From: a virus
Direction: 5' to 3' (one strand)
Length of the DNA stretch: 64,000 nucleotides
IMG/VR virus record: IMGVR_UViG_3300021197_001787
Location: 96,001-160,000 of that record
The position numbers were made by a program, and so were the translations under genes. The first letter of the stretch is position 1; each line of letters starts with the position of its first letter. Shown piece after piece: positions 9,443-10,283 of the stretch. The notes under the pieces are model-generated. The model worked only from the letters and a program-made list of their open reading frames with translations. It made no database searches and was not told where the DNA came from.

Positions 9443-9634
9443 TCACCGACTTGGGTTAATAACCGCCAACCATTTCTTAGGCTCCCATGAGGCTTCTGCA
9501 TCTTCAATCCAATAAACTTTAACTCGCTCTAATCTTGGAGTACCGCGATTGATGCCATCAGGCTTTGTTCGCAAAATGATACCTGTTGCTTTTTCAATAG
9601 CACCGGGCATGTGTACCAAATCACCTACTTGCAC
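9443..9634 (-). CDS. KOW/SH3-like mini-protein (VQVGDLVHMP...WEPKKWLAVINPSR)
   Basis: Family motif; GTG start; last gene of five-gene chain. Confidence 0.75.
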   Translation of the reverse strand: MQVGDLVHMPGAIEKATGIILRTKPDGINRGTPRLERVKVYWIEDAEASWEPKKWLAVINPSR

Positions 9635-9812
9635 TGATAACCTCCACATCTTGAAGCATCGCAAACATAAACCTAAGATGGTAAGCTGTAGATGGCTTAA
9701 CAATAGCTCCACGATTGCCGCCAATAGACTTTAGCTCTGTGACCAATCCGATTATATCAGGCTGGAGTGCCGGAGCCCTTCGCTTAACTCTCACCAGATC
9801 ACCGACTTGCAT
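9621..9812 (-). CDS. KOW/SH3-like mini-protein (MQVGDLVRVK...VISASR)
   Basis: Family motif; 14-nt overlaps at both ends. Confidence 0.75.
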   Translation of the reverse strand: MQVGDLVRVKRRAPALQPDIIGLVTELKSIGGNRGAIVKPSTAYHLRFMFAMLQDVEVISASR

Positions 9813-9966
9813 TGATCGCCTTCCCGCCCCAACTGTTGACCCAATACTCAAGCCTTCCATCCATCGAGCGCACTAATACGTCGCCCCTGTCATTGGCTTT
9901 GATAGCGATACCGATGTATGCCTCTATACTTGGCAGCTTCACGCTAATCAGATCACCGATTTGCAT
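9799..9966 (-). CDS. KOW/SH3-like mini-protein (MQIGDLISVK...INASR, 55 aa)
   Basis: Manually translated; 14-nt overlaps at both ends. Confidence 0.75.
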   Translation of the reverse strand: MQIGDLISVKLPSIEAYIGIAIKANDRGDVLVRSMDGRLEYWVNSWGGKAINASR

Positions 9967-10141
9967 TGACTAACTCCATTTGTCTCGTTCTAATCGGAAA
10001 GGGATCTTCATAGCCGGGTATCAGGACATAGAATATATCTGTGTGAGTCCTTGGCTCGCTGACAAAGAAGAACCGTTCCACCACCAAGCCCACAGGCTTG
10101 CCGTCTACCGTTGTGCATCTAACCAGATCACCGACTTGCAT
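9953..10141 (-). CDS. KOW/SH3-like mini-protein (MQVGDLVRCT...VNANR)
   Basis: Family motif; 14-nt overlaps at both ends. Confidence 0.75.
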   Translation of the reverse strand: MQVGDLVRCTTVDGKPVGLVVERFFFVSEPRTHTDIFYVLIPGYEDPFPIRTRQMELVNANR

Positions 10142-10283
10142 CAACCACCTCCAAGAGTCTCGGCAACATGTGGAACACCATACCATGCTTAGGGAAGTTG
10201 ACGAGCCAGCCGTCATTTTCCCACGCCAAGATGACACCGATGTTACCATCCATAGTCTCACGAACCAAACTGCCGACTTGCAT
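10128..10283 (-). CDS. KOW/SH3-like mini-protein (MQVGSLVRET...VVDASR, 51 aa)
   Basis: Manually translated; GGGAGAG SD after P12. Confidence 0.75.
   Translation of the reverse strand: MQVGSLVRETMDGNIGVILAWENDGWLVNFPKHGMVFHMLPRLLEVVDASR

What the first reader, a model, noticed from the sequence alone, without database searches (positions are those of the whole stretch)
9443..10283. Self-chaining gene junction: one gene's tail and the next gene's head share the same 14 nt
Seen in sequence: five consecutive paralogs (10283-10128, 10141-9953, 9966-9799, 9812-9621, 9634-9443) each overlap the next by exactly 14 nt. The junction xATGMAARTCGGTGA reads N/D-A/E-S/N-R-stop in one frame and M-Q/K-V/I-G-D in the other, so the conserved 'ESR*/ASR*' C-termini are a by-product of the next gene's 'MKVGD' head. 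The same junction recurs at 12864-12877, 13054-13067, 15085-15098 and, with an extended start, 3382-3401. Where GGTGA became GGCGA the upstream tail runs on (13283: EARRSC; 15518: ESGRSGKSEE). Inference: the junction works both as a translational coupler and as a microhomology for adding or removing cassettes.
Basis: partly seen in the sequence, partly recalled or inferred. Interest (0 to 1): 0.85.

Follow-up and report, generated by a model that had tools for sequence, protein, structure and literature searches.

The report
Self-chaining junction of phage mini-genes
In the early region of an uncultured ~194-kb marine phage, dozens of tiny SH3/KOW-like genes are linked by one ~32-base junction that holds the stop of one gene and the ribosome site and start of the next, and related phages have gained, lost and swapped whole genes exactly at this junction.

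Summary
Genes 10283-10128, 10141-9953, 9966-9799, 9812-9621 and 9634-9443 (minus strand) are joined by four 14-nt overlaps, RTGCAAGTNGGTGA. The fifth gene ends in a relic of the same junction.

The 14 nt are the core of a ~32-nt dual-coding module, tTGGAGGTgaTcA|ATGaAAGTcGGTGATtTgGT. Upstream it encodes L-E-V-I-S/N-E/A-S-R-stop. Downstream it supplies the Shine-Dalgarno GGAGG (fixed 6-nt spacing), the start codon and the head M-K/Q-V-G-D-L-V. In that phase, 14 nt is the shortest overlap this head allows.

In 66 related contigs, 154 of 194 abutting family pairs overlap by 14 nt. A further 459 such pairs came from IMG/VR stretches fetched with the junction pattern. Non-family pairs in the same genome follow the usual order of 4 > 1 > 8 > 11 > 14 nt.

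Codon choice shows constraint in both directions:
- Gly is GGT in 95% of overlapped heads against 65% otherwise.
- Glu is GAG in 97% of overlapped tails against 57% otherwise.

Relatives differ by whole units: there are 134 distinct adjacencies, 109 of them joined only by 14 nt. One clean 196-nt one-unit indel lies between ~93%-identical flanks. Translational coupling stays plausible but untested.

I class this as a new variant of known kinds. The scan had noted it before only on this same genome.

The parts
10128..10283 (-). Unit [5], the promoter-proximal first gene of the array (51 aa, MQVGS...LLEVVDASR). Its head is GGC-AGT, so it carries no TGA.
   Evidence: Orthologues are 82-98% identical in relatives, always come first (no upstream partner) and have 6 different downstream partners.
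9953..10141 (-). Unit [14] (62 aa, MQVGDLVRC...QMELVNANR).
   Evidence: It is 98% identical to the orthologues in L015, L017 and L018.
9799..9966 (-). Unit [19] (55 aa, MQIGDLIS...GGKAINASR).
   Evidence: It is 80-93% identical to the orthologues in L010, L015 and L017.
9621..9812 (-). Unit [78] (63 aa, MQVGDLVRV...DVEVISASR). No close orthologue was found in the loci fetched.
9443..9634 (-). Unit [3] (63 aa, GTG start, VQVGDLVH...WLAVINPSR), the last gene of the array in this genome.
   Evidence: It is 56-82% identical to orthologues that sit at other array positions in relatives.
10128..10141 (-). 14-nt junction 1, ATGCAAGTCGGTGA. The SD GGAGGT lies at 10148-10153, inside the L-E-V codons.
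9953..9966 (-). 14-nt junction 2, ATGCAAATCGGTGA.
9799..9812 (-). 14-nt junction 3, ATGCAAGTCGGTGA.
9621..9634 (-). 14-nt junction 4, GTGCAAGTAGGTGA, preceded by TGGAGGTTATCA.
9443..9456 (-). Relic junction ACCCAAGTCGGTGA. This is the head of the lost terminal unit [0] with its ATG changed to ACC. It runs straight into the TTGACA boxes of the next promoter (9433-9438 and 9422-9427).
   Evidence: Relatives L014, L045 and L056 keep the 10-codon remnant MQVGDLLTTA*. Relatives that still have [0] show its head (GGTGAT) and its end (TTGGAT-CTCTTGACA) as the two breakpoints.
9385..9412 (-). Promoter-like site (TTGCTA-16-TATATT) for the next gene, 8473-9360. It marks the end of the array's transcription unit.
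   Evidence: The scan found no promoter-like or terminator-like site on the minus strand inside 9443-10283.
12864..12877 (-). The same junction in another operon, ATGAAAGTAGGTGA.
13054..13067 (-). The same junction, GTGAAAGTTGGTGA, giving the tail ESW*.
15085..15098 (-). The same junction, GTGAGAGTCGGTGA.
3382..3395 (-). The same junction behind a non-family 77-aa gene, whose tail is YESR*.
11990..12003 (-). A 14-nt overlap of a family tail (EVISAVG*) with a non-family 161-aa gene whose head is GTGCAGTTGGATAA. The stop is TAA at the same position.
15370..15383 (-). A second relic head, GTGAAAGTGTGTAG, followed by an 84-nt spacer. In L004 and L010 the two flanking orthologues are chained directly by a 14-nt junction.

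Best explanation
The 14-nt overlap is the core of a ~32-nt dual-coding junction module, consensus tTGGAGGTgaTcA|ATGaAAGTcGGTGATtTgGT. It links stand-alone KOW/SH3-like mini-genes of 50-70 codons in the early operons of a clade of uncultured marine phages of about 185-200 kb.

In the upstream frame the module encodes the last beta-strand and the floppy tail of one protein, L-E-V-I/V-S/N-E/A-S-R-stop. In the downstream frame it supplies the Shine-Dalgarno GGAGG (often extended to GGAGGTGATC) at a fixed 6-nt spacing, then the start codon, then the nearly invariant head M-K/Q-V-G-D-L-V.

Exactly 14 nt results for two reasons. The upstream strand runs right up to the start codon. In that phase, the first stop that can be written across M-K/Q-V-G-D is TGA over GGT-GAT. 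Selection keeps GGT so the overlap stays minimal (shown by codon statistics).

Nearly every boundary carries the same 20-35 nt. Recombination between junctions, within a genome or between co-infecting relatives, therefore removes, inserts or swaps whole units. Every product automatically keeps a complete tail, SD, start and stop. The whole-unit turnover is shown by comparison of relatives. The recombination mechanism is inferred. It is probably homologous or short-homology recombination, helped by the phage's own RecA-like protein, or replication slippage.

Translation of each unit probably starts mostly at its own strong SD. Reinitiation by ribosomes that terminate 11 nt downstream of the start is a possible extra contribution (inferred, untested).
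For: Anatomy of the junction:
- Searches show the sequences. One search gives the consensus over 154 junctions: GGAGG at a fixed 6-nt spacing in 66 of them, and a mean longest match to the extended SD of 6.1 nt against 4.6-4.7 nt in the other classes.
- When a phase-matched upstream ORF reads into an M-x-x-G-D head, it stops at 14 nt in 193 of 203 cases.

Codon-level constraint:
- Gly is GGT in 193/203 overlapped heads against 55/85 others, p = 1.4e-10. Collapsed to orthologue clusters it is 66/69 against 30/45, p = 9e-5. In cluster 11, GGT is 5/5 when overlapped and 0/4 when not.
- SD-driven tail: h-E-h motif 124/172 against 30/141, and GAG 120/124 against 17/30.

Prevalence:
- 154 of 194 abutting pairs in 66 anchored loci overlap by 14 nt.
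- A further 459 of 576 abutting pairs do so in the new IMG/VR stretches with family units (113 contigs). That set was fetched with the junction pattern, so it is biased.
- The pattern occurs in at least 119 IMG/VR stretches, many from contigs of 184-204 kb.

Cassette turnover:
- The array formulae differ between relatives.
- A 196-nt one-unit indel lies between flanks about 92-94% identical to the window and is bounded by junction repeats.
- The tail of unit [5] is joined to the heads of [14], [19], [65], [6] and [0].
- There are 134 distinct adjacencies, 109 only by 14 nt, and one unit has 9 downstream and 8 upstream partners.
- 343 of 414 homology endpoints lie within 30 nt of a head start, against roughly a third expected if they were spread evenly over ~180-nt units.

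Genome context:
- A RecA-family gene is present. No integrase or resolvase was found.

Protein fold:
- AF2 mean pLDDT 83, five strands. Foldseek TM about 0.66 to eS4 KOW, PetP, YorP and the UvrD/PcrA Tudor domain. Profile hits to Spt5/NusG KOW and HERC2 at E about 4e-4.
Against: - Coupling is untested. A 14-nt overlap lies outside the -8 to +6 window where termination-reinitiation has been shown, and even 8-nt overlaps are less efficient (PMC10666635).
- Each junction has a strong SD and no masking RNA structure (accessibility 0.44, MFE z = 0.2), so independent initiation may be enough.
- Recombination at the junction is inferred from end products only. Selection against broken genes would also favour whole-unit boundaries, although it would not easily recreate the exact overlap.
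- Recent tandem duplicates are rare: one within-contig pair in the anchored set and a handful in the larger set. 'Adding' seems to happen by exchange rather than duplication.
- The loss of terminal unit [0] in this genome used a GAT/GGAT microhomology inside the unit, not junction-to-junction pairing.
- The codon statistics are not fully free of shared ancestry.
Confidence: 0.75

Rival explanations
1. Passive inheritance only. The chain is the frozen trace of old tandem duplications of a gene that already overlapped its neighbour. The junction is conserved only because the head and the last strand are conserved protein motifs. It plays no part in recombination or in translation control.
For: The head (G4, D5 and L6 at 90% or more) and the hydrophobic last strand are real protein features of an SH3-like fold. 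Codons 6-7 just past the overlap give a similar consensus whether or not the head is overlapped. Units within an array are anciently diverged.
Against: The same orthologous unit occurs with up to 9 different downstream and 8 different upstream partners, nearly always through an exact 14-nt overlap. Near-identical flanks bracket whole-unit indels. The GGT and GAG codon biases depend on whether a neighbour is present, even within one orthologue cluster. Protein conservation alone does not predict that.
Confidence: 0.12
2. The module is primarily a translational coupler. Downstream units are translated mainly by ribosomes that terminate at the TGA inside the head, slide back 11 nt and reinitiate with help from the extended SD. 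This would give equimolar output along the chain. Cassette turnover would then be a side effect.
For: The stop is kept as close to the start as the head allows (193/203). GTG starts are three times more common in overlapped heads (61/203 against 9/85), as expected if initiation is assisted. Coupling over short distances is documented (PMC6728339 and PMC10666635).
Against: The overlap length lies outside the documented efficient window. SDs are stronger at junctions than at promoter-first genes. No structure hides the ribosome site. The excess of GTG starts is also explained by the upstream Ser codon AGT in L-E-V-I-S. No expression data are available.
Confidence: 0.3
3. Site-specific cassette system. 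The junction is a recombination site recognised by a dedicated recombinase, as attC sites are in integrons.
For: The arrays are promoterless units behind one promoter, with a fixed first and a fixed last element and a variable interior.
Against: No tyrosine or serine recombinase was found in a genome rated 100% complete. The junction contains direct repeats, not inverted repeats, and shows no fold. Crossover points are not fixed within the junction.
Confidence: 0.03
4. Programmed +1 frameshifting at CGG-TGA reads the chain through into a multi-domain polyprotein.
For: Each downstream unit lies in the +1 frame of its predecessor. The stop follows a CGG or AGG codon. Rare natural in-frame fusions of two units exist elsewhere (P0008 and P0022).
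Against: There is no slippery codon of the prfB type. The SD lies 16-25 nt before the stop rather than about 6 nt. Each unit has its own SD and start. No two-domain ORF was found in the 66 loci fetched up to that point.
Confidence: 0.02

Closest known systems
PeSL (promoter-early stem-loop) cassettes of T4-type phages, which mediate modular shuffling of small early ORFs (Arbiol et al. 2010, PMC2839356; Comeau et al. 2014, PMC4122927)
   Same: A short conserved motif is repeated at the boundaries of many small, non-essential early genes. Insertions, deletions and replacements between related phages are bounded by the motif. The motif also carries expression signals, so each shuffled gene stays expressed.
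   Different: PeSLs are intergenic promoter-plus-terminator elements. Here the repeat is coding DNA read in two frames (tail of one gene, SD, start and head of the next) inside one operon. It has no promoter or hairpin. The shuffled units are all paralogues of one family. Mini-circles were not looked for.
Overlapping stop/start gene pairs with translational coupling by termination-reinitiation (Huber et al. 2019, PMC6728339; 2023, PMC10666635)
   Same: Same-strand neighbours in one transcript, with the stop of the first gene next to the start of the second and an SD inside the upstream gene.
   Different: The typical overlaps are 4, 1 and 8 nt. Here 14 nt dominates and is fixed by the downstream protein's conserved N-terminus. 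Coupling has not been shown.
Linker-sequence view of modular phage evolution (recalled from Susskind and Botstein 1978 and from work on boundary sequences in lambdoid phages; not re-read here)
   Same: Short conserved sequences at gene boundaries act as homologous crossover points for module exchange.
   Different: Here the 'linker' is created by the paralogous gene ends themselves and is repeated dozens of times per genome.
Integron gene-cassette arrays
   Same: Promoterless cassettes sit in one orientation behind one promoter, and their content varies between relatives.
   Different: There is no integrase, no attC-type inverted repeats, and the cassettes overlap one another.
KOW / Tudor / SH3-like small beta-barrels (Spt5/NusG KOW, eS4, PetP, YorP, UvrD-PcrA C-terminal Tudor domain)
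   Same: A five-stranded barrel is predicted, with TM about 0.66. There is weak profile similarity, E about 4e-4.
   Different: No Pfam family reaches its threshold. The proteins are stand-alone, 50-70 aa long, and of unknown function.

Membership tests
Translationally coupled overlapping gene pair (termination-reinitiation) | Same-strand genes on one transcript with no promoter or terminator between them | tested here: met
   The genes overlap physically. The scan found no promoter-like or terminator-like site on the minus strand within 9443-10283.
Translationally coupled overlapping gene pair (termination-reinitiation) | Stop and start within the window where coupling is documented (-8 to +6 nt) | tested here: not met
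   The overlap is 14 nt. The window is taken from PMC10666635.
Translationally coupled overlapping gene pair (termination-reinitiation) | Translation of the downstream gene depends on translation of the upstream gene | not testable with these tools
   This needs reporter or ribosome-profiling experiments.
PeSL-type shuffling cassettes | A conserved motif repeated at the boundaries of variable small early genes, with indels and replacements between relatives bounded by it | tested here: met
PeSL-type shuffling cassettes | The motif is an intergenic sigma-70 promoter plus a stem-loop terminator | tested here: not met
   The junction is coding in two frames. MFE z = 0.2 and the scan found no promoter or terminator there. 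Separate promoter cassettes do exist between operons.
Integron cassette array | An integrase of the tyrosine recombinase family | tested here: not met
   PF00589 and PF00239 are absent from the 194-kb genome.
Integron cassette array | attC-type imperfect inverted repeats at cassette ends | tested here: not met
   The junction consensus contains direct repeats (GGTGAT twice) and no inverted repeats. No fold was found.
KOW domain (Pfam PF00467) or SH3-like barrel | A five-stranded SH3-like beta-barrel fold | tested here: met
   AF2 mean pLDDT 83.4, strands 6-9, 26-35, 39-46, 51-55 and 59-61. Foldseek TM 0.6-0.69 to KOW, Tudor and SH3-like chains, but E is only about 1e-2.
KOW domain (Pfam PF00467) or SH3-like barrel | Sequence match above the Pfam gathering threshold | tested here: not met
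   No hit for 8 members. Only 2 of 101 members touch KOW, at E = 0.03.
prfB-type programmed +1 frameshift site | A slippery codon before the stop, with an SD about 3 nt upstream of it | tested here: not met
   The sequence is AGT-CGG-TGA, and the SD lies 16-25 nt upstream of the stop.

The most novel reading that the evidence does not exclude
The junction may be a selected, self-propagating linker. It would turn a family of more than 100 diverged KOW/SH3-like early mini-proteins into an integrase-free combinatorial cassette system. Any two units recombined at the junction are instantly a correctly terminated, SD-equipped and correctly started pair. Phage populations could then reshuffle an arsenal of host-takeover or anti-defence effectors at high frequency. 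On this reading the dual coding (SD written in the last beta-strand, stop written in the next protein's Gly-Asp) is maintained partly because it enables that shuffling.
Probability: 0.3. Interest if true: 0.8.

Novelty: new variant of a known kind. Interest (0 to 1): 0.62.

Why it matters
This is an unusually clean natural case in which a single short sequence is constrained by four readings at once: the C-terminus of one protein, a ribosome-binding site, a start codon with the next protein's N-terminus, and a stop codon. The same sequence also sits at the breakpoints of gene gain, loss and exchange across a widespread clade of uncultured marine phages.

It gives a testable example for the old 'linker sequence' idea of modular phage evolution. 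It extends the PeSL concept from intergenic regulatory cassettes to coding junctions.

It also shows in numbers how a neighbour's expression signals dictate amino-acid and codon choice in a protein tail. That bears on gene annotation, because conserved C-terminal motifs may not be protein features. It also bears on the design of compact synthetic operons.

The family itself is a large uncharacterised set of phage early proteins: about 6,800 clusters at 50% identity and no Pfam model.

Tried and rejected
- Named phage relatives: megablast and tblastn of the array, its flanks and one unit against 50,697 phage records found nothing. Only the N4 gp24-like ATPase gave distant hits.
- The 216-aa upstream flank has no relatives in IMG/VR, so I used the 295-aa downstream gene as the anchor.
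- Pfam and PHROGs: no family for the units.
- RNA structure masking the ribosome site: none found.
- Integron-like and frameshift readings: rejected (plus the sequence itself).
- RecT and ERF annealing proteins: absent.
- GATC sites in the junction as a methylation or restriction signal: GATC is only mildly under-represented genome-wide (573 observed against 697 expected), and the family region is only modestly enriched. I dropped this lead.
- Recent tandem duplication as the source of the chain: within-contig near-duplicates are rare.
- Literature searches for this family or junction found nothing specific.
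Full report
**What the window is.** The window is bases 96001-160000 of a single 194,231-bp virus contig with 40.5% G+C. IMG/VR rates it complete. Almost all genes lie on the minus strand. The genome encodes Pol III alpha, a family-A polymerase domain, DnaB, class II ribonucleotide reductase, GroEL, an N4 gp24-like ATPase, a RecA-family protein and six tRNAs in the window. 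No named phage record resembles the region.

**The observation.** The minus strand of 9443-10283 holds five small genes: 10283-10128, 10141-9953, 9966-9799, 9812-9621 and 9634-9443.
- Four 14-nt overlaps, RTGCAA(G/A)TNGGTGA, join them.
- Each overlap reads x-A-S/N-R-stop in the upstream frame and M-Q-V/I-G-D in the downstream frame.
- The fifth gene ends INPSR* over ACCCAAGTCGGTGA, which is the same junction with its ATG destroyed. The TTGACA boxes of the next promoter follow at once.
- I found two more cases: a 14-nt overlap onto a non-family gene at 11990-12003, and a second relic head at 15370-15383.

**The family.** An HMM built from the window's units finds about 25 paralogues in this genome, nearly all in window 1400-15600.
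- No Pfam model matches.
- An AlphaFold2 model from a 101-sequence alignment is confident (mean pLDDT 83) and is a five-stranded barrel. Its last strand is the L-E-V of the tail motif, and the residues after it have lower confidence.
- Foldseek gives TM about 0.66 to eS4 KOW, PetP, YorP and the UvrD/PcrA Tudor domain. A profile search of PDB sequences gives Spt5/NusG KOW and HERC2 at E about 4e-4.
- The profile finds 6,789 clusters at 50% identity in 1.84 billion representatives. Most are stand-alone proteins of 50-70 aa, with a few fused multi-domain forms.

**Relatives.** The 295-aa gene just downstream of the array (8473-9360) served as the anchor. It retrieved 6 IMG/VR and 60 metagenome loci at 29-85% identity. 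All of them carry the family, on the same strand as the anchor.
- Among 273 adjacent family pairs in non-redundant contexts, 154 overlap by 14 nt, 23 by 4 nt (ATGA) and 17 by other lengths. The other 79 are separated by promoter-bearing spacers or other genes.
- An exact junction pattern occurs in at least 119 more IMG/VR stretches, many on contigs of 184-204 kb. In those, 459 of 767 adjacent pairs overlap by 14 nt. That set was selected with the pattern, so it is biased.
- As a control I made crude gene calls on the same genome. Non-family pairs give 22, 12, 11, 8 and 4 pairs at 4, 1, 8, 11 and 14 nt. That is the usual prokaryotic order (PMC10666635).

**Anatomy of the module.** The consensus over 154 junctions is tTGGAGGTgaTcA|ATGaAAGTcGGTGATtTgGT.
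- The codons L-E-V-I are TTG-GAG-GTG-ATC. They contain GGAGG at a fixed 6-nt spacing from the start.
- At full length they read GGAGGTGATC. From general knowledge, this is complementary to the conserved 3' end of 16S rRNA.
- The Ser/Asn/Asp codon before the overlap ends in the first two bases of GTG or ATG.
- In this phase the codons x-AT, G-MA, A-RT and N-GG cannot be stops. The first stop the head M-K/Q-V-G-D allows is therefore TGA across GGT-GAT.
- That explains the exact 14. When a phase-matched ORF reads into such a head it stops at 14 nt in 193 of 203 cases, and otherwise at 23-68 nt.

**Constraint runs both ways.**
- Gly is GGT in 193/203 overlapped heads against 55/85 others (p = 1.4e-10). 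Collapsed to orthologue clusters the figures are 66/69 against 30/45 (p = 9e-5). Within cluster 11, GGT is 5/5 when overlapped and 0/4 when not.
- Head codon 3 avoids xTT, which would put Trp in the tail (2/203 against 21/85). GTG starts, which go with the upstream Ser codon AGT, are three times more common in overlapped heads.
- In the other direction, an h-E-h tail motif occurs in 124/172 units followed by a 14-nt overlap against 30/141 units with no following start. Its Glu is GAG in 120/124 against 17/30.
The conserved LEV is partly a by-product of the next gene's SD.

**Cassette turnover.** I clustered units at 50% identity or more and wrote each array as a formula. '=' marks a 14-nt junction.

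| Contig | Array upstream of the 295-aa gene |
|---|---|
| Window | [5]=[14]=[19]=[78]=[3], then relic |
| L017 | [5]=[14]=[19]=[44], then relic |
| L015, L018 | [5]=[65]=[14]=[19]=[3]=[0] |
| L010 | [5]=[19]=[3]=[0] |
| L012 | [5]=[6]=[0] |
| L014 | [5]=[14]=[6]=[3], then relic |
| L022 | [5]=[0] |
| L045 | [5], then relic |

- Unit [5] is always first and unit [0] is always last. The interior varies.
- In the alignment of the window and L017 against L015 and L018, the flanks are about 92-94% identical to the window. A single 196-nt unit is present or absent, bounded on both sides by the junction (TTrGAGGTrATmrATGmAAGTmGGTGATTTrGTTAGA). The breakpoint therefore cannot be placed within the repeat.
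- BLAST blocks between the window and five relatives begin and end at the junctions.
- The same [5] tail is joined to the heads of [14], [19], [65], [6] and [0].
- Overall there are 134 distinct adjacencies, 109 of them only by 14 nt. Unit [6] has 9 downstream and 8 upstream partners.
- Of 414 internal homology endpoints between chains from different contigs, 343 lie within 30 nt of a head start.
- Near-identical duplicates within a contig are rare. Turnover therefore looks like loss and exchange of old, diverged units rather than recent duplication.

**The relic at 9443-9456.** In relatives, unit [0] ends ...TTG-GAT-CTC-TTG-ACA-ACT-GCT-TGA. Its tail LLTTA* is thus written over the next promoter's TTGACA boxes.
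- Six contigs, this one included, carry an in-frame deletion of the body of [0]. It runs from GGTGAT in the head to TTGGAT near the end.
- In L014, L045 and L056 the deletion leaves MQVGDLLTTA*. The window has further lost the ATG.
- This event used a short microhomology inside the unit, not junction-to-junction pairing.

**Mechanism and rivals.**
- Whole-unit turnover with exact regeneration of a two-frame overlap is hard to get from random illegitimate recombination plus selection. It is the expected product of recombination or slippage between the 20-35-nt repeats.
- The genome has a RecA-like gene but no RecT, ERF, integrase or resolvase. I therefore reject an integron-like site-specific system.
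- A frameshift or polyprotein reading lacks a slippery site, and no fused ORFs occur in the loci.
- Translational coupling is plausible, because the stop is kept as near the start as possible. It is not needed, though: the SDs are strong, no structure masks them, and the overlap lies outside the documented window. It remains open.

**Comparison with known systems and verdict.** The closest published analogue is the PeSL regulatory cassette of T4-type phages (PMC2839356). Those are conserved motifs at the boundaries of small early genes where indels and replacements occur. The difference here is that the motif is coding DNA read in two frames inside an operon, and it is generated by the paralogous gene ends themselves. 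I class the finding as a new variant of known kinds: overlapping-gene junctions and motif-mediated modular shuffling. It is of moderate to high interest for phage genome evolution and for dual-coding constraints. Earlier notes of this scan describe the same junction only on this same genome.

Noticed in passing
L015:5380-5470, L022, L010 (relatives); window 9422-9440: The C-terminus LLTTA* of the terminal array unit [0] is encoded by the next promoter's two TTGACA boxes (CTCTTGACAACTGCTTGACAC), and the stop TGA lies inside the second box. Coding sequence and promoter upstream elements therefore overlap.
   Followed up: partly
window 15286-15383: A degenerate head, GTGAAAGTGTGTAG, and an 84-nt AT-rich spacer separate two units. 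Their orthologues in L004 and L010 are chained directly by a 14-nt junction. This is probably the remnant of a lost unit or an insertion.
   Followed up: partly
window 11518-12003: A non-family 161-aa gene starts with GTGCAGTTGGATAA. This resembles the family head and is overlapped by 14 nt with a TAA stop. It may be a head captured by recombination.
   Followed up: no
window 50487-51305 (G000:C1:146487-147305, minus strand): A RecA-family recombinase gene (PF00154, E = 8e-37) in the phage genome.
   Followed up: partly
P0008, P0022, P0011 (global protein library): Rare natural in-frame fusions of two units, for example ...SSLEVVKQVKVGDLV...YLEVISESR. A related KFKVGD subfamily forms proteins with 3-12 tandem repeats (P0001, P0002, P0005).
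   Followed up: no
G000:C1:20734-32322 (outside the window): An open frame of 3,862 codons. Together with the N4 gp24-like ATPase, this hints at an N4-like virion RNA polymerase in a ~194-kb genome. I did not check it.
   Followed up: no
window 13283-13305 against L017:200-213: A synonymous GGT/GGC difference in the head of unit 13305 changes the upstream protein's end from ...EAR* in L017 to ...EARRSC* in the window. A silent change in one gene thus lengthens its neighbour.
   Followed up: yes
window 8328-8413, 16550-16783, 17390-17551: Six tRNA genes (Leu-TAA, Asn, Ile-TAT, Arg-TCT, Met/CAT, Lys) lie among the early operons.
   Followed up: no
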